DNA from: Candidatus Omnitrophota bacterium
GTDB lineage: Bacteria; Omnitrophota; Gorgyraeia; Duberdicusellales; 4484-171
Direction: 5' to 3'
DNA length: 64,000 bases
NCBI GenBank assembly: GCA_043820815.1
Contig: JBDRDJ010000005.1
Location: 105,517-169,516 of the forward strand
Both the position numbers and the translations under genes were made by a program. Positions 9,937 to 29,883 of this stretch are shown piece by piece. Under the pieces are notes generated by a model. That model searched no databases. It was not told the DNA's origin and saw nothing but the letters and a program-made list of their open reading frames with translations. The first letter of the stretch is position 1; every line of letters begins with the position of its first letter.

Positions 9937-10014
9937 GGTTCGACTTCGTCCTTCGACTCGTTTCACTCGCTCAGAACGACTCTGAGCGAAGCGAGAAATG
10001 GCATATAAAAAAAG

Positions 10015-10131
10015 CCCGGCAACTACCTACTCTCCCACAACCTTGCGATTGCAGTACCATCGGCCTCGGAGGACTTAACGGCCGTATTCGGAATGGGAAC
10101 GGGTGTGGCCCCTCCAGTTTGGTCACCGGAC
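10015..10131 (-). rRNA. rrf: 5S ribosomal RNA
   Basis: The reverse complement matches 5S landmarks (CCCGTTCCCATTCCGAAC, GGGAGAGTAGGTAGTTGCC); helix I pairs the two termini. Confidence 0.85.
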
Positions 10132-10602: not shown

Positions 10603-11362
10603 CAGTTTTGTTACTCTTATCCGATTTTCATTGGATAAAGGGCTAATCATTTCTGTTAGCCTCTGCACGTCGCCGTGCAGCTCGGACTGTATCTTCCTTT
10701 GACATCTTTGATGTCAAAGGTCCGGCGTACAGTCTCTGAGGGTTACAAAGAAGCAATTAGTTCCTTAAGAGACAACTTTCTATATTTGCCTCTACTATTC
10801 ATAGAAAAAGCGATCTTAAGGATTTGTATTAATCCATCTTTGGCGAGGTGATTTTTCTCAAACATCATATTCACTACTTTCTTAAATTTAAGAAAATCTT
10901 GATGCTTACAAATCAACGGATAGCTATGGAAAAAAGGTATCACTCTATCTCTTAAGTTTTTTAAATCCCTCACCACAAAAACCCATGTCAAATCATAAGG
11001 ATTTTTACTGTGATTTGGCTTTAAATAACCACAGTCAAGAGTTACCTTAATAAATTCCAATACTTGTGTGCGATTGCCATGCTGTGAAACATGAAATTCA
11101 GGAATAATCTGAATACCTAATCGCACGTTCTTGCTTCGTTGGATTGTGATAGAAAAACTACCTTCACCATCTACAAATCCCGCAATATAATCGCCAGTTT
11201 GCCTCTTTGTCCTTCCCTGCTGATTGTCTGCACCCATATATTGTCACTCCTAACTAATGTTAATCAATATATTTTACACTATAGAGACTAAATAGTCAAA
11301 TAGTAATATGGGATACCCAGATTTTCCAGCATATAGCCAGATTTAAAGACAGCAAATCTCTT
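10603..11362 (-). mobile_element. Group I intron in 23S rRNA domain V (inserted after ...GTGAGACAGT, before TCGGTC)
   Basis: Exon 1 ends GAGACAGU and the intron contains GCUGUC nearby, giving P1 with the U.G wobble. The intron ends in G. R-like (TCAGAGACTG) and S-like (AAGATACAGTCC) core elements lie in the 3' part. The exons rejoin to the conserved ...GAGACAGTTCGGTC. Confidence 0.8.
10743..11237 (-). CDS. Intron-encoded LAGLIDADG homing endonuclease (single-motif, I-CreI-like size, 164 aa)
   Basis: The motif YIAGFVDGEGSF near the N-terminus is the LAGLIDADG signature; the ORF lies wholly inside the group I intron. Confidence 0.85.
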   Translation of the reverse strand: MGADNQQGRTKRQTGDYIAGFVDGEGSFSITIQRSKNVRLGIQIIPEFHVSQHGNRTQVLEFIKVTLDCGYLKPNHSKNPYDLTWVFVVRDLKNLRDRVIPFFHSYPLICKHQDFLKFKKVVNMMFEKNHLAKDGLIQILKIAFSMNSRGKYRKLSLKELIASL

Positions 11363-11502
11363 ACTGTCTCACGACGTTCTGAACCCAGCTCACGTACCCT
11401 TTTAACCGACGAACAGTCGGACCCTTGGGACCTTCTCCAGCCCCAGGATAGGATGAGCCGACATCGAGGTGCCAAACCGCGCCGTCGATGTGAACTCTCG
11501 GG

Positions 11503-11552
<50 letters not shown>

Positions 11553-12015
11553 GCTCCCACGCGCAACCACCGGATCATTAGGCCCTGCTTTCGCATCTGC
11601 TTGGCTTGTCAGCCTCGCAGTCAAGCACCCTTGTGCCCTTACACTCACCGTCCGATTTCCAAACGGACTGAGGGTACCTTTGGGCCCCTCCGTTACTCTT
11701 TAGGAGGGAACTGCCCCAGTTAAACTGCCCAACTGGCACGGTTCTCTGCACAACACAGAGTTAGAATCTTAACATAATAAGGGTGGTATTTCACCGGTGG
11801 CTCCTCCCGACCTAGCGGCCGAAACTCAAAGCCTCCCACCTATGCTACACATATTAGGCCAAAATTCAATACCAGCCTACAGTAAAGGTTCCGGGGTCTT
11901 TTCGTCCTACTGCGGGTAGACGGCATCTGAACCGCCACTACAATTTCGCCGAGAGCCTCGCTGAGACAGTGTTCCCATGGTTTTACCTTTCGTGCGGGTC
12001 GGAAATTACCCGACT

Positions 12016-12056
<41 letters not shown>

Positions 12057-13457
12057 ATTCACCAGGGCTTCGGTTCAAAGCTTCTTCTGACGAATCAGAA
12101 TAACCTTTTCCCTTAACCTTCCGGCATTGGGCAGGTCTCAGTCCCTATACATCCTCTTGCGAGTTAGCAGGGACATGTGTTTTTGCTAAACAGTCCCAGG
12201 AACCATTTCTCTGCGCCCATGACATAAATGTCAAGGGACCCCTTCTCGCGAACTTACGGGGTTATTTTGCCGAGTTCCTTAGCGAGGTTTATCTCGAGCG
12301 CCTTACCATACTATGGCAGCCTACCTGTGTCGGATTCCGGTACGGTCACCTATAGACAACTTAAGAAACTGTTTCTTGGCACTCAATCCTGATGGGTTCG
12401 CCCGCGCCGTAGCTTGGACTCCTGCCGGTCCCTTACGGAACCGAAAACGGACACATCCAACAGTCCGACCATCGCATCTTGTGCGTCATCTCTTAAGTTA
12501 ACGCCTATAGGTGGGGGGTGAACTATTAACACCCTTACCCATCGCCTACTCCCGTTAAACCGGGATTTGACTTAGGGACCGCCTAACCTCCGTTTGACGA
12601 ACATTGACGGAGAAACCTTAGGCTTTCGGCGCACCGATTTTTCATCGGTGTTTTCGCTACTCATTCCAGGATACTCACTTCTATGCGCTCCAGCTTGATT
12701 TACATCAAACCTTCAGTGCGCGTAGAACGCTCCCCTACCCCTTCCGATTATTCATCGGAAAGCCGCGGTTTCGGTAACAGGCTTGAGCCCCGATCATTTT
12801 CGGCGCAAAATCACTCGATCGGTGAGCTATTACGCACTCTTTAAATGATGGCTGCCTCTAAGCCAACATCCCGACTGTCTTAGCAACTTCACATCCTTTA
12901 ACACTTAGCCTGTGTTTTGGGACCTTAACCGGCGGTCTGGGCTGTTTCCCTTTCGACTATGGAGCTTAGCCCCCACAGTCTCACTCCTCGGGTAAGAACA
13001 GTAAAGATTCGGAGTTAGGTTGGGTTTGGTATGGACTCTGTCCACCCTAGCCCATCCTGTGCTCTACCCTCTACGTCCAATCCCGAAGGCTGACCCTAAA
13101 GTCATTTCGGGGAGAACCAGCTATCACCAATCTTGATTAGCCTTTCACTCCAACCCACAGCTCATCCGAGCCTTTTTCAACAGACACCAGTTCGGGCCTC
13201 TATCCCGCTTTCGCGGGACTTCACCCTGGCCATGGGTAGATCGACTGGCTTCGGGTCTATTTCCTACCACTAAAACGCCCTGTTAGGACTCGGTTTCCCT
13301 ACGCCTGCCCCTTATTAGTTACAATAAGGGTTAAACTCGTGATAAAAAATAACTCCCTGGACCATTATGCAAAAGGTACGCCGTCGCCACGCCATTGCTG
13401 ACGGGCTTCGACCGCTTTGTAAACTTATGGTTTCAGATTCTATTTCACTCCCCTCAC

Positions 13458-13494
<37 letters not shown>

Positions 13495-14070
13495 ACTATC
13501 GGTCTGATGCGAGTATTTAGCCTTGCCCCGTGGTCAGGGCGAATTCCCACAAAGTTTCTCGTGCTCCGTGGTACTTGGGAATACATGCCAGAGAGTTTTT
13601 TCCATTTTGCTTACAGGACTATCACCCTCTATGGTGCCGCTTTCCAGCAGCTTCTGCTATAGAAAAAATTTTTGACTCTCCGAGAGCACTGCCGCGCTCT
13701 CCACTTGTACCCCGTAACTCTCAAAAAGCAACACCGGCAGGCTTATAAACTTTTTGAGTTTGGGCTGTTCCCTTTTCGCTCGCCGCTACTGGGGGAATAC
13801 TGTACGGTTTCTCTTCCTCCGGCTACTGAGATGTTTCACTTCACCGGGTTAGTCCCCTTGATATTGTCATACCAAGGGTTTCCAGGCATTACCCTGGAAG
13901 GGTTACCCCATTCGGGAATCTGCGGATCAAAGAAAGCTTGCCTCTCCCCGCAGCTTATCGCAGCTTGCCACGCCCTTCATCACCTGCATCAACCAAGCCA
14001 TCCTCCATAAGCTCTTAGTAGCTTGATACCCAACCAAATTTTCAAAGACCAAATTTATTTTTTTCCTCAA

Positions 14071-17172: not shown

Positions 17173-17451
17173 TTATCTTTTGAAGAGCAGGGAGAGGAAA
17201 AATAAAATAGCGATGATACAACAAAAGGCGATTATATACTCCCACGAACCTGCTTTAGAAGAAACCGCCGGCTTAGTCGGTTTTTCAGTTTGGCTCGGAA
17301 TAGGAGCCTGCGGCTGATCCATAATCTGGCTCAGAAGCTTACGGCACAGGTCACAAACACAGAGGTGCTCCTCTACGCTCTTAACCTCGCCGTCAACGGC
17401 CCTGTGATTAATATAACGGGGTATTATTTCCTTTATCTCTTGACACTGCAT
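17173..17451 (-). CDS. Putative membrane-anchored anti-sigma factor (zf-HC2 zinc-finger type)
   Basis: The H-x3-C-x2-C motif (EEHLCVCDLC) follows a conserved N-terminal helix; single C-terminal TM helix; its start overlaps the rpsU stop (TAATG). Confidence 0.45.
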   Translation of the reverse strand: MQCQEIKEIIPRYINHRAVDGEVKSVEEHLCVCDLCRKLLSQIMDQPQAPIPSQTEKPTKPAVSSKAGSWEYIIAFCCIIAILFFLSLLFKR

Positions 17452-17804: not shown

Positions 17805-18206
17805 CTAATCAGGGGTACAGCAGAGGTAAGACGGGCTGCAACCCATGGGAACTCCTCCATTATTCCACCATTGGCTGGTTGACTGAGCACAGCCGGATCC
17901 TGAAGGATGATGGAAAGATGCCAAACTACTGAAGGTATCTTTGCATTCCCCTGTATATCCTAAATACTTCTTTTGAACAAAATTGAGCGGACAAAAATCG
18001 TATTCCGGCAAAGCAGCCTTATTCACACAAGGCTGGGATGCTACGCCATTATTAGTGCCGCAGTGATAGACAAAACAAAAACCCGAAGCTGTGCCGCCTT
18101 GTTGACTTTCATCACTCAAACCTTTTGAACCCAAAACAAAAAATATTGCAATAAAGAATATTGCAAAAACACTGCCGATAAACAAACGTGAAATTTTTCT
18201 TCTCAT
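17805..18206 (-). CDS. Small secreted Cys-rich protein: stand-alone copy of the C-terminal Cys-rich module of the paralog family
   Basis: Signal peptide/TM, then FCFVYHCG...PCVNKAALPEYDFCP...YLGYTGEC...HPSGSGC...YLCC; this aligns with the C-termini of the proteins at 18299-21148. RBS AAAGGAGG. Confidence 0.65.
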   Translation of the reverse strand: MRRKISRLFIGSVFAIFFIAIFFVLGSKGLSDESQQGGTASGFCFVYHCGTNNGVASQPCVNKAALPEYDFCPLNFVQKKYLGYTGECKDTFSSLASFHHPSGSGCAQSTSQWWNNGGVPMGCSPSYLCCTPD

Positions 18207-18298
18207 TACAGCCTCCTTTTATCCATTCGCCAGAAGACCACGCGCATGCGCGCGGGACTCCATTTACAGCCAAACTTTAATAAACTTAAAAAATACGA
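18207..18298. promoter_or_regulatory. Intergenic region with a GC-rich palindrome CCCGCGCGCATGCGCGTGG upstream of the 17805-18206 gene
   Basis: A perfect 12-bp palindrome CGCGCATGCGCG in an otherwise AT-rich spacer, about 20 nt upstream of the RBS. Confidence 0.3.
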
Positions 18299-19258
18299 TT
18301 ATTTTATACAAATATAAACACGGTCTCCGGGATAATATGTGAAACCGGCAAGACAGTTTCCCCCGGGCGGCGTATAATGAAAATCAGAGCCTTTTTGGCA
18401 GAGGCCCCAAGTACCAAGATAAACCCTCTGTTTATATTCACCGGGACAAAAATCCTCTGCCGGAAATACCGCTTTATTAACACAAGCAGGCGCATATGAA
18501 CCGCCGCAGTAATAAGTAAAATATATTCCTTCTTCTCCTATGGCCGCCACCCATTTTTTCTCATCACCGTCATAAACCTTAAGCATATAGTAATCCGGCG
18601 GGGATATAATTGCCGGTTTCCCTGCTAAAATATTTGCAGGGCAATCCCCATTATCATCAACCGGCACAATTACCATATCACCTGTTTCTGGATTCTGAGG
18701 ATAAATTGCCGTACAATGATCGGGACTCAAAAGTTGATTTAAAATGGGGAGCGGCTGAATACGGATACCATCAGAAGTCTTAATATGGAGTGTTCTTTGA
18801 GGGCCTCCTTCTGAAATATCAAGGCCAATACCTACTCTTCCCTTATCGCTCACGGATAAAATATCCATGTCACTTCCGGCATTACGCACTCTTAAAGCAT
18901 ACGTATCTGCATTATTGCCGCTGTTCTCACCCCTTATATCAAAACGAGCCAATTGAGCCGGGTCGGTTCCCGCAGACACACCAACAGCAACCTGGCCGCT
19001 AACTGTAAGGCCTCCCGGTATTAGGTCTCCGGCCTGGGCATGATTGGCAGGATATGTCGGCCTCTGGATTTCACCAATACTTTGGCTTTCAACAACAACG
19101 AGATCTTGATATGAACCATAGGGTATAGGGTAATAAGTAGTTAAGGTAATTTCTTTATATCCCTTGGATTTTACCTGGCTTAAAACCGGAAAAATTATTA
19201 ATGCGTTAACAGCTAAGAGTAAAACCGCAACAATAACAAAAATTTTCTTTTTCATCAT
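18299..19258 (-). CDS. Secreted paralog family protein P1 (N-terminal ITLTTYYPIPYG motif, Gly-rich GIG repeats, C-terminal Cys-rich module)
   Basis: Signal peptide; KEITLTTYYPIPYGSYQDL; GRVGIGLD...RTLHI; C-terminus YFTYYCGGSYAPACVNKAVFPAEDFCPGEYKQRVYLGTWGLC...PPGGNC...YICIK. Confidence 0.7.
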   Translation of the reverse strand: MMKKKIFVIVAVLLLAVNALIIFPVLSQVKSKGYKEITLTTYYPIPYGSYQDLVVVESQSIGEIQRPTYPANHAQAGDLIPGGLTVSGQVAVGVSAGTDPAQLARFDIRGENSGNNADTYALRVRNAGSDMDILSVSDKGRVGIGLDISEGGPQRTLHIKTSDGIRIQPLPILNQLLSPDHCTAIYPQNPETGDMVIVPVDDNGDCPANILAGKPAIISPPDYYMLKVYDGDEKKWVAAIGEEGIYFTYYCGGSYAPACVNKAVFPAEDFCPGEYKQRVYLGTWGLCQKGSDFHYTPPGGNCLAGFTYYPGDRVYICIK

Positions 19259-19279
19259 AACTGCCTTGGTTAAATTATT

Positions 19280-20248
19280 TTACTTCTTCTCAATGATGTA
19301 GCCGCCGGGAACACACAGATAAGCTTCTCCGATATTTTCTAAACCCATGTGTTTTCGGCAGCCTCCGCCGGGAGGACGATAAAAATAATCCTTAACAACA
19401 AAGCTACCCTCCTTATGGCAATAGCCCCAATTGCCAAGAGGCATTACTTGTTTAAAACCAACAGGGCAATACTTTTGAGGCTCACCTGCATCAATACAAA
19501 GACGTCCGCCTTGACCGCCGCAATAGTATGTAAAGGCATACCCTTTGCTTCCGGCCTTAGGAGTCATCCATACAGCCGGCTTCTCTAAGTTTGGATCAGC
19601 GTCTGGAACCGATTCCTGATATAGCCACTTAAGCTTATTTTTATCGCTTTTATCAATTAAGATATCGCCGGGCTTGCCGTCAGGCTTATTGCCTACAAGG
19701 GGAAATACATTAACATCGCTTAGGTCTGAATGTTCAATCCTCATGCCGTTATCACCAAAAATATCAAGCCGCCTTCTAGGCTGTTCATTAAACACATTAA
19801 CGCCAAATCCAATCATAGAGTTATTTCCAACTGCCAAAGCATATTTACCGCTGTTACTGCTATCGCGCACACCAAATACATATTCACCGGCTGAATCATT
19901 TTGCCTGGACACATGAACAGTTGTAACAGGCCTATCCACGCCAACGCCTACTCTTCCCGAAACAGCTAAAAGGCCTCCGTTATTAGGCATAACAATTGGA
20001 ACAACCGCAGGCAAATCATCCCTGTCAACAACACCGTCATCATTAACATCGCCAATAACCTGCCTGGTAACATACAAATCTTTATAAACTCCGTAAGGAG
20101 CAGGATAAAATGTTGTTAATGTAATATTTTCGCTCTGATTTTGAGTAAATCCGGGCAAACTTATAATAGAAATAAAACACAAAATATAAATTATTCTTCT
20201 CACAAAATAGCTCCTAAAATAAAAATATTTGTTATCAAAATTCTCCAC
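19280..20248 (-). CDS. Secreted paralog family protein P2 (ITLTTFYPAPYG motif, dockerin-like DVNDDGVVDRDD loop, Cys-rich C-terminus)
   Basis: Signal peptide; NITLTTFYPAPYGVYKDL; GDVNDDGVVDRDD; C-terminus FTYYCGGQGGRLC...YCP...LGNWGYC...PPGGGC...YLC. Confidence 0.7.
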   Translation of the reverse strand: MENFDNKYFYFRSYFVRRIIYILCFISIISLPGFTQNQSENITLTTFYPAPYGVYKDLYVTRQVIGDVNDDGVVDRDDLPAVVPIVMPNNGGLLAVSGRVGVGVDRPVTTVHVSRQNDSAGEYVFGVRDSSNSGKYALAVGNNSMIGFGVNVFNEQPRRRLDIFGDNGMRIEHSDLSDVNVFPLVGNKPDGKPGDILIDKSDKNKLKWLYQESVPDADPNLEKPAVWMTPKAGSKGYAFTYYCGGQGGRLCIDAGEPQKYCPVGFKQVMPLGNWGYCHKEGSFVVKDYFYRPPGGGCRKHMGLENIGEAYLCVPGGYIIEKK

Positions 20249-21148
20249 AGATATACGCCTTGCCTATAGGAAGAGATTTAGTGTCCCCTGGAAAACAGCC
20301 TCCGCCGGGAGGATGATAATAGGAATAAGCCGGCGGCCACCCCCAGGGTCCCTTCGGAACTTCACAATTACCCCATTCCCCCAGATAAACTTTTTCTTTA
20401 AATTGTATATTGTTTATAACCGGGCAATGGTTCTCAATAGGAGGGTTATCAGGTGGACAAAGCCTGCACGTTTCATTTTGCCCGGTACAATTATAACTGC
20501 AGTAATAATCAAAATGGACATTAGTTCTTCCTGCGCTTCTCCATTTTTCTCCGTCGTGCCAGCTAAGCGCATTGCCATTGCTTAAATCAACTACAATATC
20601 GCCGGTATCGCCTTCAGGTTGGTTGTTTACGCGGGGAAAGCTGTTAAGGTCAGCGGCCTTGAGCCTTATTCCGTTAACACCGCCGACATGAAGGGTCCTT
20701 TCTGCATCGTTAACACCAATGCCTATTCTACCGTTGCTATTTATAAACATTGCAAAATCAGCTTTGCCTGGGCTGCTGCCAATACCAAGAGGAAATTGTC
20801 CGTGGACACTATTTATACCGGTATCTCTTACAATATCTAAAGTAGCGGCAGGGGAAGTTGTGCCAATACCTAATCTTGAGGCAACAGTCAAGCCTCCAGG
20901 TGTTGGCTGGCCTGCGCTTGGATGGCCAGGGGGTATCTAAGCATATCCTCGGAATCAACATCGCCGTCACCGTCAACATCCCCTATGACTTCGTGGTTGG
21001 TAACGATTATTTCTCTATATAATCCGTAAGGCGAGGGGTAATAGGTAGTAAGGGTTATTTTTTCATCAGCCTGCTGGCAGAAAAGAGAGGATTGAAAGGA
21101 AAAACATAAAAAAGATACGAATAAAATAAAAGCAAACTGTCTTAACAT
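20235..21148 (-). pseudogene. Paralog P3 broken by a frameshift in a G5 (plus-strand) homopolymer at 20929-20933; one extra G restores a single ORF of about 304 aa
   Basis: The ORF at 20888-21148 encodes signal peptide + EKITLTTYYPSPYGLY + GDVDGDGDVDSEDMLRY. The frame of 20235-20891 continues upstream as IPPGHPSAGQPTPGGLTVASRLGIGTTSP..., matching the neighbours. The two frames meet in the CCCCC run. Confidence 0.65.
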
Positions 21149-21243: not shown

Positions 21244-21272
21244 CTAATAGCGTAAAAGGGGTCAGTGTGACC
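21244..21272 (-). terminator. Hairpin GTAAAAGGGGTCACACTGACCCCTTTTAC downstream of btuD
   Basis: Perfect inverted repeat plus a U-rich tail on the minus strand, immediately after the stop at 21277. Confidence 0.5.
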
Positions 21273-21276
21273 CCTT

Positions 21277-22053
21277 TTACGCAAGAAAAACATAAGGGGT
21301 ATTAGAAGACGGGTGATTTCCAATTTCGACATTAGTTTGATAAACATCTTCGATTATTGCCTTGGTGATAACTTGGCCGGGCAAGCCTTGTGAATGGGCT
21401 TTTCCCTTATTAAGAAGAACCAATCTGTCACAATATTGAGATGCAAGGTTTAAATCATGTAAAATCACAATAACCGTAAACCCTTTTTCTTTATGCAGCC
21501 TTTTTAGAAGGTTTAAAATCTTAACTTGATTGCCTATGTCAAGATGGCTTGTTGGTTCATCTAAAAGTAAAAGCAAAGGTTCCTGGGCCAGAGCTGCGGC
21601 AATGCTCGCAAGCTGCCTCTCGCCTGAGCTGATCTCAAGCAAAGACTTACCTTTAATATGTTCCGTATGAGTGCCTCTAAGAGCAGAATGAACTGCGGCT
21701 AAATCATTTTTAGTCTCAAAAAACTGAAATCTTCTAAAATGAGGGGTTCTTCCAAGCAGTACATATTCTTCAACTGTTATGGGAATATGCTCTTCAGTTT
21801 GGCTTACAACCGCGATTTTCTTTGCAAGCTTAGTTCTCTTTATATTAATTAAATCCTCATCGTCGAAAATAATCTTGCCCGATTTTATTTTAAGAATCCC
21901 TGCGACTGCCTTGAGCATGGTTGTTTTGCCGGAACCGTTTGGGCCGATTATTCCTATAAAACCCCCCTTCTGAACAGTTAAATTGATCCCTGATAGAGAA
22001 AAATTATCATAACCGCACTCAAGATCAAATATTTCAAGTAATTTAGAGCTCAT
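21277..22053 (-). CDS. btuD: ABC transporter ATP-binding protein (iron-siderophore/cobalamin family, BtuD/FepC-like)
   Basis: Walker A GPNGSGKTT, signature SGERQ, Walker B LLLDEPTSHLD; adjacent to a FecCD permease and a binding protein. Confidence 0.8.
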   Translation of the reverse strand: MSSKLLEIFDLECGYDNFSLSGINLTVQKGGFIGIIGPNGSGKTTMLKAVAGILKIKSGKIIFDDEDLINIKRTKLAKKIAVVSQTEEHIPITVEEYVLLGRTPHFRRFQFFETKNDLAAVHSALRGTHTEHIKGKSLLEISSGERQLASIAAALAQEPLLLLLDEPTSHLDIGNQVKILNLLKRLHKEKGFTVIVILHDLNLASQYCDRLVLLNKGKAHSQGLPGQVITKAIIEDVYQTNVEIGNHPSSNTPYVFLA

Positions 22054-27088: not shown

Positions 27089-27511
27089 TCAAGCACCAGA
27101 AAGGTAAGACTTTACCGTTTTAAGATAATCGCTAATTACTGCGGGGATATTTTGAAGTTTATCGTAAACAATTTCGTGGTCTAAAGCCGCGTATTCGTGA
27201 ACAAGTATATTTCTGAACCGGGCCAGGTCGATAAGTTTTTCTTTTAACTCACTGTCAATAATATTATTTTCAAATAAGATTCTTGGTATCTCAGCATAAG
27301 TATCGGGCTTGCGAAACTTCTTTTCGCTGATAATTATTTCTCCGATAGTTAGATATGCTTCCAAAGCTAAATGAAGCTCCCTTTCGGCCAAATCATGAAT
27401 CTTCCAATCAGAAAGAAATTTATCACGTGAACATTTCTTAAGCTCATTCAGCTGTTTTGCATAACGCTCTAACTCTAATAAATACTTGGCTATTTTTTCC
27501 TGATCAACCAT
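27089..27511 (-). CDS. hepT: HEPN-domain toxin HepT (DUF86)
   Basis: 140 aa with the C-terminal R-x4-HxY motif (RNILVHEY); directly downstream of an MNT-type nucleotidyltransferase. Confidence 0.8.
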   Translation of the reverse strand: MVDQEKIAKYLLELERYAKQLNELKKCSRDKFLSDWKIHDLAERELHLALEAYLTIGEIIISEKKFRKPDTYAEIPRILFENNIIDSELKEKLIDLARFRNILVHEYAALDHEIVYDKLQNIPAVISDYLKTVKSYLSGA

Positions 27512-27516
27512 AAAAG

Positions 27517-27927
27517 TTAACCATCTTTTATCGCCTGCCTTGTATATTTATCAAGATAAGGCTTCCAGTCCAGATATTTAAGTATAGTTATCTGCTCATA
27601 ATCAAGTCTCAGTTTTTCATCGGCGCAGTAAATAAGTTTGCCGTCACGCAGAATTCTTTGCGCTAAGAAAGGGCTTGCATTGTTTAAAAGCACAAGGTCT
27701 ATCTCGTCAGTCTTAAGGGCATCGTTTAACCGGCCAAGCAGTTCTAATTTCTTTCCGGAATATTCCTTCCTATCCAATCCTCCTATATACAAAGCAATGT
27801 CAATATCACTCAAAGGACCGGTTGAGCCTTTTGCCTGTGAGCCAAAAAGATAAGCAAACACAACACCGCTATCTCTACATACAGCGTTTATCTTCTCCCC
27901 GATCTCTTCTCTGTTATGCTTTGCCAT
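27517..27927 (-). CDS. mntA: Minimal nucleotidyltransferase MntA (antitoxin, pol-beta-type NTase)
   Basis: GS-x10-SDID motif (FGSQAKGSTGPLSDIDIAL) of the pol-beta NTase fold; 136 aa; 5-nt gap to hepT. Confidence 0.8.
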   Translation of the reverse strand: MAKHNREEIGEKINAVCRDSGVVFAYLFGSQAKGSTGPLSDIDIALYIGGLDRKEYSGKKLELLGRLNDALKTDEIDLVLLNNASPFLAQRILRDGKLIYCADEKLRLDYEQITILKYLDWKPYLDKYTRQAIKDG

Positions 27928-28029: not shown

Positions 28030-28810
28030 ACCACAGAGGCCGCAGGGTGTAGGTCGAGTAGACCCGTATTTCAGAGCCCCTCACAGAACCGTACGTGCGG
28101 ATTTCCCGCATACGGCTCTTGAGTAAATTTCCATCAGTATACGATTATGCGTATCACATTATCAACCCCTACCGCTTTATTCCTGTCAAGCGTATAGAAG
28201 CTCGCCTTTAAGGATTCCTTGTTAACATGTTGCATTATGTTGACAAACTTTCGCTTAGAATCCCTTGCGGCATACTGACTTAGTGTGGTTAATTTCGTTC
28301 CCACTGTTTTCCTTTGAACTTTGAGTTCATACAATGTTTCCTTAACCACATTCAACTTACTCCTAACCCCTTCGAGCAGCTTTAAGCTTTAGCGGCGTTA
28401 CCCGCTATTGACTCTAATATGGATTAGTCCGACTACCATTCATGTCGTACTATTGCCTTACTTCTTCAGCTTAAGCACTAGCTTAATTGGAAACATGATG
28501 GTCATCCCAAGTTCCAATGCAAACATTCGATAACCCACGGTGGCTTACTACCCCGGCAGGACAACATATCCTTGCCATAGCGTTTATGCTGTTACTGGTT
28601 TCCAGCACTTGAAAACTTTAACCCACTGCTACATGTCTATTTCGGGGCTAAAAATCCTTCACTTGTGTTACCGTTGATTATCTCCTTCCCCTTGGCTTTG
28701 CACGATTTGTTACCGCCTCGTACACAAGGTTCAGTACCTCCCTGATGGCTAATCTTTAAGAGAGTTAGCTTTTACATACTAACCTGTCTGCATCAGCTTT
28801 CTTGGCGCAC
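28030..28810 (-). mobile_element. ORF-degenerate group II intron (about 0.78 kb), probably class C: inserted in intergenic DNA immediately after a stem-loop
   Basis: 5' end GTGCGCC (revcomp of 28804-28810). Domain V GAGCCGTATGCGGGAAATCCGCACGTACGGTTC (revcomp of 28086-28118) matches the DV consensus. A 73-aa RT N-terminal remnant sits between. The exon flank just 5' of the insertion forms the hairpin TCAAGTCTCAACTTGA. The 3' boundary is approximate; D6 was not resolved. Confidence 0.75.
28134..28355 (-). pseudogene. Remnant of the group II intron-encoded reverse transcriptase/maturase (N-terminal 73 aa only)
   Basis: The translation ...LYELKVQRKTV...FVNIMQHVNKESLKASFYTLDRNKAVGVDNV resembles the RT0/N-terminal region of intron-encoded proteins (..L...I...NL..A...V..NKGAAGVDG..). 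The ORF stops 16 nt before DV. Confidence 0.6.
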
Positions 28811-29115: not shown

Positions 29116-29883
29116 TTAAAAACAAGGTTCCTTTAGACCGGAACAACTCAGCGATATCGTACGTATACCACCTACCGCACAACTATTTTGACGTTGCCAA
29201 CCACTAGCATTGGTATAATACCAAACCCAATTATCAGTACAGGAAACCCATTGTTTAGTCTTTATAGCATCAACCTTGGTATAACCTTCAAGTTCGCATA
29301 AATGCTTAGCAGTTGTATTGTCGGCCCTTGTCTGTTCCGAATCATCAGCTACTGGTAGACCTGCACCCTCGCTGCCTGCAAGTTGATTAATTCTACTTTC
29401 ACCAAGAACAACATTCTCCGGTGGGCACCAACACGGAATCCATACTGCTTTTCCAGCGCCATCTGACTTAAGACAATCACCTTTCTTGCCCTCTGCAACC
29501 GGCAACTCATATCCAACCCCAGGGGCACCAATATTTACCTGCCCTTCTAAGAGAGCTGTACCGACAACATCAAGATTCTCTCTAGGTTCACGAGTCCCTA
29601 TGCCCAAACTGCCAGATAGTGCCAAACTTCCCGGCAAAGGATCACCGTTTATGTCAACAGCCATGTCTGCATTAGTAACTTTACCGTCTCCATCAACATC
29701 TCCAAGAACAACGGTGTTGGTAATAATGAGATCTTTATACACCCCGTAAGGTGCCGGGTAATAGGTTGTAAGTGAAATTTTCTCGCCATCAGGCTCCTCT
29801 GCCTTAGGCTTAGAAAAACCGGTAAACACCACTGAAACAGCGAGAAACAAAAATGCAATTAGAATAAAGGCTCTTTTTGACAT
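29116..29883 (-). CDS. Secreted paralog family protein P4 (ISLTTYYPAPYG motif, dockerin-like DVDGDGKVTNAD loop; divergent Cys-rich C-terminus)
   Basis: Probable start MSKRAF (RBS AAGGAGG), not the upstream ATG at 29913. Signal peptide; EKISLTTYYPAPYGVYKDLII; GDVDGDGKVTNADMAVDINGD; SLGIGTREPRENLDV; 10 Cys in the C-terminal 110 aa. Confidence 0.65.
   Translation of the reverse strand: MSKRAFILIAFLFLAVSVVFTGFSKPKAEEPDGEKISLTTYYPAPYGVYKDLIITNTVVLGDVDGDGKVTNADMAVDINGDPLPGSLALSGSLGIGTREPRENLDVVGTALLEGQVNIGAPGVGYELPVAEGKKGDCLKSDGAGKAVWIPCWCPPENVVLGESRINQLAGSEGAGLPVADDSEQTRADNTTAKHLCELEGYTKVDAIKTKQWVSCTDNWVWYYTNASGWQRQNSCAVGGIRTISLSCSGLKEPCF

What the first reader, a model, noticed from the sequence alone, without database searches (positions are those of the whole stretch)
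17805..21148. Tandem cluster of paralogous secreted Cys-rich proteins with a conserved N-terminal TLTTYYPxPYG motif (candidate novel family)
Four consecutive minus-strand genes (17805-18206, 18299-19258, 19280-20248, 20235-21148), plus a fifth at 29116-29883, share a modular design.
- Each has a signal peptide followed immediately by (E)K-I-[TS]-L-T-T-[YF]-Y-P-x-P-Y-G-x-Y.
- Three of them carry a single dockerin/EF-hand-like loop G-D-V-[DN]-[GD]-D-G-x-V-x-x-x-D.
- A central Gly-rich region has G-[RS]-[VI]-G-[IV]-G-T...R-[TN]-L-[HD]-[VI] repeats, reminiscent of tail-fibre/beta-helix repeats.
- The C-terminal module of about 90 aa has an invariant cysteine pattern: [FY]-x-Y-Y-C-G-G..C..(F)-C-P..[YF]-[KV]-Q..-L-G-x-W-G-x-C....-P-P-G-G-x-C....Y-[IL]-C.
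The smallest member is just signal peptide plus that Cys module, which shows the module is an independent unit. The genes overlap or are translationally coupled; they sit between the B12-uptake operon and rpsU, with a GC-rich palindrome in the spacer. I do not recognise this combination as a described family. A secreted, Ca-binding, disulfide-rich adhesin/toxin-like or cell-surface system under diversifying duplication is plausible.
Basis: partly seen in the sequence, partly recalled or inferred. Interest (0 to 1): 0.8.

Follow-up and report, generated by a model that had tools for sequence, protein, structure and literature searches.

The report
Secreted mini tail-fibre-like adhesins of Omnitrophota
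The cluster encodes small exported proteins built like miniature phage tail fibres, with one conserved end and swappable binding tips, belonging to a large undescribed family that probably helps these ultra-small bacteria recognise other cells or surfaces.

Summary
The window comes from a Candidatus Omnitrophota MAG. It holds four genes with an almost invariant N-terminal module (signal peptide, E-x-ITLTTYYPxPYGxY, usually one EF-hand-like calcium loop) and four copies of a C-terminal six-cysteine module.

Three corrections:
- The fourth gene is broken by a frameshift in a C5 run.
- The fifth gene has a different tip.
- The genes are closely spaced, not overlapping.

The two modules are independent.
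- The N-module defines a large family: over 1,100 proteins, and 507 loci in species-representative genomes, essentially all Omnitrophota. It has no match in Pfam, NCBIfam or the PDB, and none on viral contigs.
- Family members carry VGIGTxxPxxxL capping loops. These are homologous to Bdellovibrio MAT fibres and phage tail fibres.
- The tips vary. They include the S74 intramolecular chaperone (15 of 91 members), a gp53-like tip, and the Cys module.
- The Cys module (about 157 proteins, nearly always C-terminal) gave a confident model with no known fold. In CPR bacteria it sits on PilX-type minor pilins.

Best reading: Sec-exported, probably trimeric, MAT-like mini-fibre adhesins with exchangeable tips. 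All of this is computational. The anchoring partner, the trimer state and the ligand are inferred.

The parts
20888..21148 (-). Gene 4, N-terminal part: signal peptide, EKITLTTYYPSPYGLY (21023-21049), Ca loop GDVDGDGDVDSED (20963-20983). The ORF ends at a stop created by a frameshift.
   Evidence: annotated at NCBI as 86-aa ABH872_01445 (P0009)
20929..20933 (-). C5 homopolymer. One additional C joins the two parts of gene 4 into a 304-aa paralogue (…RYPPGHPSAGQPTPGGLTVASRLGIGT…).
   Evidence: read directly; the repaired protein aligns end to end with genes 2 and 3
20235..20936 (-). Gene 4, C-terminal part in the other frame: two capping loops (SRLGIGTTSPAATLDI, NGRIGIGVNDAERTLHV), a GDIVVD…LSWHDGEKW hairpin motif, and the Cys module (about 20238-20528).
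19280..20203 (-). Gene 3 (P0001, 307 aa): signal peptide, N-module (20090-20116), Ca loop (20033-20053), two capping loops, Cys module (about 19283-19549).
18299..19258 (-). Gene 2 (319 aa): signal peptide, N-module (19115-19141), Ca loop lost, two capping loops, Cys module (about 18302-18535).
17805..18206 (-). Gene 1 (133 aa): hydrophobic N-terminus (signal peptide or membrane anchor) followed directly by the Cys module (about 17808-18089; 9 Cys). No N-module.
29116..29883 (-). Gene 5 (255 aa): signal peptide, N-module (29743-29769), Ca loop (29683-29703), one capping loop (GSLGIGTREPRENLDV), and a different Cys-containing tip with no recognised relatives.
21250..21282 (-). 15-bp GC-rich hairpin at the end of the upstream ABC ATPase gene. 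Terminator-like; it separates the B12-uptake operon from the cluster.

Best explanation
The genes encode Sec-exported, probably trimeric, miniature tail-fibre-like adhesins. They are functionally analogous to the Bdellovibrio 'mosaic adhesive trimer' (MAT) fibres.

Proposed mechanism:
1. A classical signal peptide takes the protein across the inner membrane. It is cut a few residues before a conserved Glu (inferred).
2. The near-invariant N-module (E-x-I-T-I-T-T-Y-Y-P-S/A-P-Y-G-x-Y-x-x-L plus one EF-hand-type Ca2+ loop) is the constant end. It nucleates assembly and holds the fibre on a conserved cell-envelope partner (inferred; partner unknown).
3. One or two VGIGTxxPxxxL capping-loop / beta-helix units form a short shaft. 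Homology is shown for family members and is weak for the window copies.
4. The exchangeable C-terminal tip binds the ligand. In this cluster the tip is a new ~80-aa domain with three or four disulfides.
5. The same tip sits on PilX-type minor pilins of type IV pili in CPR bacteria. That marks it as a displayed binding knob rather than an enzyme or toxin (inferred).
6. Several diverged tips side by side would give the cell several binding specificities, for host or prey cells or for surfaces.
For: Export:
- 234 of 243 family members have a basic n-region plus a hydrophobic stretch.
- The motif starts at median residue 31, after FA/E-E.

Constant end:
- Residues T-T-Y-Y-P-x-P-x-G-x-Y are 92-100% conserved over 243 proteins that otherwise share little.
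- 1,137 proteins match the N-module profile.
- 507 confirmed loci occur in GTDB species representatives. The best 80 are all Omnitrophota or coarsely labelled MAGs, with several scattered copies per genome.

Fibre nature:
- 15 of 91 members end in Peptidase_S74, the intramolecular chaperone of trimeric tail fibres and spikes, and 1 ends in Gp53-like_C.
- P0104 hits PHROG tail-fibre families at about 1e-12.
- Member L080 hits the Bd2133 MAT fibre 8OND (E 2.8e-8), 8OML (1.4e-5), and S74 domains of a T4-type fibre and of MyRF.
- The MAT capping-loop consensus V-G-G/N-pi-x-x-P-x-x-x-L and its listed instances match the window loops.
- The window shaft profile has 8OND as its top PDB hit (E 0.015).

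Cellular, not viral:
- No confirmed hit for either module in 2.9 million viral contigs.
- Neighbours are housekeeping genes, and no conserved partner gene was found.

Tip:
- 154 of 159 domain hits (158 of them significant) end within 12 aa of the C-terminus.
- The tip is attached to the N-module, to PilX_N, to a classical pilin and to other N-termini.
- The PilX and AWTEPT forms come from Moranbacteria and Portnoybacteria.
- There are four invariant Cys plus two co-varying Cys pairs: 113 both / 42 neither / 2 mismatched, and 57 / 97 / 3. 129 of 157 modules have an even number of Cys.
- The AF2 model has pLDDT 89 and pTM 0.77.
Against: - No experiment and no multimer model: trimerisation, surface location, anchoring and ligand binding are all inferred.
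- The window proteins themselves give only weak similarity to solved fibres (E 0.015; hhalign probability 16%) and no PHROG hit.
- The monomer AF2 model is poor for the N-motif and the middle region (pLDDT 38-60).
- These proteins are 130-530 aa, far shorter than the roughly 1,000-aa MAT fibres. How they would cross or project beyond an outer membrane is unexplained.
- No anchoring partner or dedicated secretion genes are linked to them.
- Homology of the N-module to the MAT N-domain could not be tested.
- Gene 1 lacks the N-module altogether.
Confidence: 0.6

Rival explanations
1. Accessory proteins of type IV pili. The N-module docks the protein onto the minor-pilin tip complex of the type IVa pilus that nearly all Omnitrophota encode, so the proteins act as pilus-tip adhesins rather than as free-standing envelope fibres.
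For: The same Cys module is fused directly to PilX_N minor pilins and to a classical GFTLIE pilin in other lineages. Type IVa pili are near-universal in Omnitrophota (PMC10066038). The MAT authors also raise possible interplay between MAT fibres and type IV pili.
Against: The window proteins have a Sec-type signal peptide, not a prepilin signal, and give no NCBIfam pilin hit. No pilus genes are linked in the window or in 80 related loci. S74 and gp53-like tips point to autonomous trimeric fibres.
Confidence: 0.15
2. Envelope-internal proteins (periplasmic, or anchored in the inner membrane by an uncleaved signal-anchor). The conserved N-module sits at the membrane face and binds peptidoglycan or another envelope polymer. 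This would be a structural role, not host recognition.
For: The proteins are short (median 229 aa). No outer-membrane translocation system is linked. The cleavage site is only inferred. Gene 1 has no clear AxA site.
Against: Receptor-binding-type tips (S74-matured fibres, gp53-like, pilus-tip module) and a variable-tip / constant-base design are typical of outward-facing recognition proteins. Many diverged paralogues per genome fit diverse targets.
Confidence: 0.12
3. Secreted bacteriocin- or toxin-like Cys-rich peptides. The amphipathic N-terminal strand (E-x-ITITT) resembles a TonB box and would serve as an import signal into target cells.
For: The proteins are small, exported, Cys-rich and encoded by tandem paralogues. 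The resemblance of E-x-I-T-I-T-T to TonB boxes of the D-T-I-T-V-T-A type is recalled from my own knowledge and was not tested.
Against: No immunity, processing or export genes are adjacent; the neighbouring ABC system is a FecCD/BtuF-type importer behind a B12 riboswitch. The N-module is combined with tail-fibre tips and S74 chaperones. The Cys module is a pilin tip elsewhere. Conservation extends far beyond a TonB box.
Confidence: 0.05
4. Remnant or domesticated phage or tailocin tail fibres that are not used by the cell itself.
For: Capping loops, S74 and gp53-like tips are of phage type. The weak best Foldseek hits include the R2 pyocin fibre.
Against: The proteins carry signal peptides. 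There are no phage genes in the window cluster or in the sampled loci. The N-module is absent from 2.9 million viral contigs. It is conserved phylum-wide, with several copies per genome.
Confidence: 0.05

Closest known systems
Bdellovibrio bacteriovorus MAT (mosaic adhesive trimer) fibres (Bd2133, Bd3182, Bd2439 and others; PMC10769870)
   Same: Both have a signal peptide followed immediately by a family-wide conserved N-terminal module, beta-helix capping loops of the form V-G-G/N-pi-x-x-P-x-x-x-L, and mosaic C-terminal tips with S74 and non-S74 subgroups. Both occur as many paralogues per genome in a (suspected) predatory or host-dependent bacterium. Direct sequence hits of a family member to 8OND and 8OML.
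   Different: The N-module here is about 55 aa (motif plus one Ca loop), against a ~130-aa beta-rich domain in MATs; homology between the two is untested. These proteins are 130-530 aa, against roughly 1,000 aa. The Cys tip is not among the MAT tips described. The window copies are only weakly similar to 8OND (E 0.015).
Phage tail fibres and tailspikes with the S74 intramolecular chaperone (Pfam PF13884; T5 and T4-type fibres, K1F endosialidase), and the gp53-like tip (PF21882)
   Same: Shaft motifs and, in 16 of 91 family members, the tip or chaperone domains.
   Different: These proteins have Sec signal peptides, chromosomal housekeeping context, and no presence on viral contigs. The window copies carry a non-phage Cys tip.
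PilX-type minor pilins of type IV pili (Pfam PF14341) in CPR/Patescibacteria
   Same: They carry the identical C-terminal Cys module. P0002 is 53% identical to the gene 3 module.
   Different: The N-terminal presentation module is entirely different: prepilin-type hydrophobic helix versus cleaved signal peptide plus TTYYPxPYG.
Dockerin type I / EF-hand calcium loops (Pfam PF00404)
   Same: The 12-residue pattern D-x-[DN]-x-D-G-x-[LV]-x-x-x-D follows the motif.
   Different: There is only one loop, whereas dockerins have two. Scores are below the Pfam cut-off (15.4 and 10.7 versus 22.9). No cohesin partner is known.

Membership tests
MAT superfamily (Bdellovibrio) | Signal peptide immediately followed by a conserved N-terminal domain shared by all paralogues | tested here: met
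   The architecture is met: a Sec-like N-terminus in 234 of 243 members, then the near-invariant module.
MAT superfamily (Bdellovibrio) | N-terminal domain homologous to the ~130-aa beta-rich MAT N-domain | not testable with these tools
   PDB entries hold only MAT C-terminal parts. Attempts to retrieve full-length Bd2133 failed. The size difference (about 55 versus 130 aa) argues against simple homology.
MAT superfamily (Bdellovibrio) | Beta-helix shaft with capping loops V-G-G/N-pi-x-x-P-x-x-x-L | tested here: met
   Family member L080 versus 8OND E 2.8e-8, with three loop repeats. The window loops fit the consensus, but the window profile versus 8OND gives only E 0.015.
MAT superfamily (Bdellovibrio) | Mosaic C-terminal tips, with S74 and non-S74 subgroups | tested here: met
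   15 of 91 S74, 1 gp53-like, the rest diverse including the Cys module.
MAT superfamily (Bdellovibrio) | Intertwined homotrimer displayed on the cell surface; long fibre (hundreds of angstroms) | not testable with these tools
   No multimer prediction or experiment was possible. The presence of S74 implies trimers for those members. The lengths (130-530 aa) are much shorter than MATs.
Dockerin type I (PF00404) | Two tandem Ca-binding segments scoring above the Pfam gathering threshold | tested here: not met
   A single loop; 15.4 and 10.7 bits against a cut-off of 22.9, matching profile positions 2-17 only.
Phage or tailocin tail fibre | Encoded with phage structural genes or on viral genomes; no signal peptide | tested here: not met
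   No confirmed hits in viral contigs; housekeeping neighbours; signal peptides present.
Type IV pilin / minor pilin | Prepilin leader G|[FM]TLxE followed by a hydrophobic helix | tested here: not met
   No NCBIfam or Pfam pilin hit for any window protein. The hydrophobic segment precedes the conserved motif. The Cys module alone is shared with PilX_N proteins.

The most novel reading that the evidence does not exclude
The TTYYPxPYG module would be a phylum-specific N-terminal display or sorting signal that defines a previously unknown surface-presentation system of Omnitrophota. In that system, many short trimeric fibres with interchangeable tips serve as the cells' host- or prey-recognition repertoire. 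The disulfide-rich tip would be a new adhesin fold exchanged horizontally between two unrelated groups of ultra-small bacteria (Omnitrophota and CPR), which present it on fibres and on type IV pili respectively.
Probability: 0.3. Interest if true: 0.8.

Novelty: new variant of a known kind. Interest (0 to 1): 0.62.

Why it matters
- Omnitrophota are uncultivated nanobacteria thought to depend on, or prey on, other cells. How they recognise partners is unknown, and attention has so far gone to giant ORFs and pili.
- This family has over 1,000 members and several copies per genome. Its constant base and swappable receptor-binding-type tips make it a concrete, clonable set of candidate recognition proteins.
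- It extends the 'bacteria re-use phage fibre parts as adhesins' principle from Bdellovibrio to another phylum, in a miniaturised form.
- The N-motif is a simple sequence handle (TTYYPxPYG) for cataloguing the repertoire in any Omnitrophota genome.
- The Cys module is a confident model with no known fold. It is shared with CPR pilus-tip proteins, which hints at a common ligand class or at gene exchange among groundwater nanobacteria.

Tried and rejected
- **Pfam, NCBIfam and PHROGs on the six window ORFs:** nothing above threshold.
- **PDB sequence searches:** N-module profile, Cys-module profile, gene 2 and repaired gene 4 gave nothing significant.
- **Fold searches:**
  - The full-length model against the PDB gave E >= 0.12; the model is too poor.
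  - The AFDB library was unavailable.
- **MAT N-domain test:**
  - I tried to fetch full-length Bd2133 from a 97-aa fragment. The protein search found nothing.
  - The metagenome scan returned only generic tail-fibre repeats.
  - The MAT paper's supplement lists the capping loops but no N-terminal sequences.
- **Conserved neighbour or assembly gene:** none. The top non-family clusters occur in at most 13 of the 80 loci and the recognisable ones are housekeeping synteny, e.g. SMC, RecA, ArgH, AlaRS.
- **Dockerin:** rejected (single loop, sub-threshold).
- **Prophage:** rejected.
- **PF26696.1:** this precomputed label on four family members could not be reproduced or named with the local Pfam copy.
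- **Sigma-70 promoter scan of the cluster:** fewer sites than in shuffles, so uninformative.
Full report
**1. What is in the window**

The window is from a Candidatus Omnitrophota MAG: gene 3 is 100% identical to NCBI ABH872_01435.

Five ORFs lie on the minus strand:
- 17805-18206 (133 aa)
- 18299-19258 (319 aa)
- 19280-20203 (307 aa with the NCBI start)
- 20888-21148 together with 20235-20891
- 29116-29883

A six-frame regex scan of all 64 kb finds T[TS][YF]YPxP[YFH]G exactly four times, always about 30 residues into one of these ORFs. The GDVDxDG loop occurs three times. The alignment shows the shared design.

The fourth 'gene' is interrupted. Reading from 21148, the frame stops at 20888. 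The paralogous sequence continues in another frame, which is open from 20936. Adding one C to the C5 run at 20929-20933 gives '…RYPPGHPSAGQPTPGGLTVASRLGIGT…' and a 304-aa protein collinear with genes 2 and 3. I cannot tell whether this is an assembly error, a pseudogene or slippage.

- Upstream lie a cobalamin riboswitch, a TonB-dependent receptor and FecCD / periplasmic-binding-protein / ABC genes.
- A 15-bp hairpin sits at 21250-21282.
- Downstream lie rpsU, BacA and the rRNA operon.

**2. Two independent modules**

*(a) The N-module.*
- A profile of the first ~100 residues finds 1,137 proteins at E <= 0.01. Every one that carries an organism name (among the best 120 listed) is from Omnitrophota, and all are 'hypothetical'.
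- A DNA-pattern scan of one genome per GTDB species finds 593 matches, of which 507 are confirmed. The best 80 are labelled Omnitrophota or carry coarse MAG labels. One complete 1.82-Mb chromosome has at least four scattered loci.
- Over 243 proteins the consensus is: signal peptide, (F)A, E/Q, E (89%), x, I/L, T (97%), I/L, T, T, Y, Y (100%), P (100%), S/A, P (100%), Y/F, G, x, Y (100%), x, x, L. After a short spacer comes [VI]-G-D-x-[ND]-x-D-G-x-L-x-x-x-D-x-P, an EF-hand-type 12-residue loop.
- The motif starts at median residue 31. 234 of 243 have a basic n-region and a hydrophobic core before it.
- Most loci hold one copy: 61 of 76 have one, 14 have two and 1 has three. The window cluster is therefore unusually dense.

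*(b) The Cys module.*
- A profile search of 1.84 billion representative proteins gives about 150 hits.
- After domain extraction, 158 proteins hold it significantly, and 154 of the 159 listed hits end within 12 residues of the C-terminus.
- It is attached to several N-termini: the N-module, PilX_N minor pilins, a classical GFTLIE pilin, and two other N-terminal types ('AWTEPTxxPPGGNV' and 'PNPGH').
- The named examples of the non-Omnitrophota types are CPR bacteria: Moranbacteria and Portnoybacteria.
- Four Cys are essentially invariant. Two further pairs co-vary almost perfectly (113 both / 42 neither / 2 mismatched; 57 / 97 / 3). 129 of 157 modules have an even number of Cys. This is the signature of a disulfide-bonded extracytoplasmic domain.
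- AlphaFold2 with a 67-sequence alignment gives pLDDT 89 and pTM 0.77, with long beta-hairpins.
- The four window copies are only 26-37% identical to each other. The gene 3 copy is 53% identical to a PilX-fused copy.

**3. What kind of protein the N-module family is**

- Among 91 N-module proteins from Omnitrophota genomes, 15 end in Peptidase_S74, the intramolecular chaperone that matures trimeric tail fibres and spikes. One ends in a gp53-like tail-fibre tip.
- A 529-aa member (L080) hits the Bdellovibrio MAT fibre Bd2133 (8OND, E 2.8e-8, three repeats of '…ERMRI..GNVGIGTxAPxxxLxV'), a second MAT (8OML, 1.4e-5), and the S74 regions of a T4-type long tail fibre and of MyRF.
- The MAT paper defines the family as a signal peptide, a conserved N-terminal domain, a trimeric beta-helix with capping loops V-G-G/N-pi-x-x-P-x-x-x-L, and mosaic tips with or without S74. 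Its listed loops, such as NVGIGATSPSAKLQ and LVGIGTATPAAPLH, match the window's SRLGIGTTSPAATLDI, GRVGVGVDRPVTTVHV, GRIGIGVNDAERTLHV and GSLGIGTREPRENLDV.
- For the window proteins themselves the link is weaker. A profile of the three shafts has 8OND as its top PDB hit, but only at E 0.015. hhalign gives E 0.0016 with 16% probability.

**4. Cellular, not viral; no dedicated operon**

- Neither module has a confirmed hit in 2.9 million viral contigs.
- Related loci lie among arginine and lysine biosynthesis genes, ribosomal protein genes, recA and similar.
- Clustering all flanking ORFs of the 80 loci finds no neighbour shared by more than 13 loci, and the recognisable ones are syntenic housekeeping genes.

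**5. Mechanism**

The steps are marked as shown or inferred.
- Shown: a conserved exported-type N-terminus; the modular swap of tips; fibre-type shaft and S74 in the family; the disulfide signature; phylum restriction.
- Inferred:
  - The signal peptide is cleaved just before E-E.
  - The proteins form trimers.
  - The N-module (a beta-strand-prone ITITT segment, an aromatic/proline turn and a Ca loop) forms the base that binds a conserved envelope element.
  - The tip binds a ligand on another cell or surface.
  - Several diverged tips broaden specificity.

The anchoring partner is unknown. A pilus tip complex is one candidate.

**6. Rivals**

The rival readings are: a type IV pilus accessory adhesin, an envelope-internal structural protein, a bacteriocin with a TonB-box-like strand, and a phage or tailocin remnant. 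They are weighed in the Rival explanations section. None fits the tip repertoire and distribution as well as the fibre reading.

**7. Novelty**

- Neither module is in Pfam, NCBIfam or the PDB, and the window proteins have no PHROG match.
- Two Omnitrophota genome papers do not mention the family in keyword searches.
- The general principle (bacterial MAT-type fibres) is known.
- New here are the N-module, the miniature size, the Cys tip and its sharing with CPR pilins.
- I therefore rate it 'new variant of a known kind'.

**8. Limits**

- All evidence is computational.
- The MAT N-domain comparison, multimer modelling and an AFDB fold search could not be done.
- Only the best 80 to 150 hits of each large search were visible, so statements about taxonomic restriction rest on those lists.

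Noticed in passing
window 28053-28773 (-): A compact group II intron: Rfam D1-D4 at 28541-28773 and domains V/VI at 28053-28120. The largest ORF inside is 73 aa, so it has no intron-encoded protein. It lies between gene 5 and the MNT/HepT pair. A 2026 paper reports group II intron RNA of the Omnitrophota predator Velamenicoccus archaeovorus accumulating in dead archaeal cells (PMC13153191, seen).
   Followed up: partly
window 10743-11237 (-): A LAGLIDADG homing-endonuclease ORF (Pfam E 2e-21) lies in the ~1.2-kb gap between the 23S rRNA match (11321-14028) and the 5S rRNA (10014-10130). This suggests an rRNA-operon intron or insertion. The 23S match is also about 200 nt shorter than the model.
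   Followed up: partly
window 27089-27927 (-); L001 10750-11598: An MNT (Polbeta nucleotidyltransferase) / HepT toxin-antitoxin pair lies just downstream of gene 5. A fused Polbeta-HepT gene also sits directly downstream of an N-module gene in another Omnitrophota genome. It was not among the frequent neighbours, so this may be coincidence.
   Followed up: partly
window 20929-20933: The frameshift in gene 4 falls in a C5 homopolymer. It could be an assembly error, a pseudogene or slipped-strand on/off switching of one adhesin paralogue.
   Followed up: partly
proteins P0133, P0145, P0148, P0170, P0182 and others; P0158, P0186, P0190, P0217: Two further recurrent N-terminal modules carry the same Cys tip. 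One is a membrane helix followed by 'AWTEPTxxPPGGNVxAPIN' (the named example, Portnoybacteria, is a CPR bacterium). The other is a membrane helix followed by 'PNPGH'. Both look like additional uncharacterised presentation modules.
   Followed up: no
proteins P0021, P0025, P0069, P0121: The precomputed annotation lists Pfam PF26696.1 on four family members. The local Pfam copy gives no hit for the three re-scanned (P0021, P0025, P0121) even at E <= 10, so the identity of that model is unknown.
   Followed up: partly
window 17173-17451 (-): A 92-aa protein lies between rpsU and BacA. It has an N-terminal Cys/His cluster (CQEI…HLCVCDLC) and a C-terminal membrane helix, which looks anti-sigma-factor-like. 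It has no Pfam hit.
   Followed up: no
window 29116-29500 (-), C-terminal half of gene 5: Gene 5 carries a different Cys-containing tip (…CWCPPENV…AKHLCELEGYTKV…SCSGLKEPCF). It has no significant relatives among about 360 fetched family proteins (best BLAST E 0.009).
   Followed up: partly
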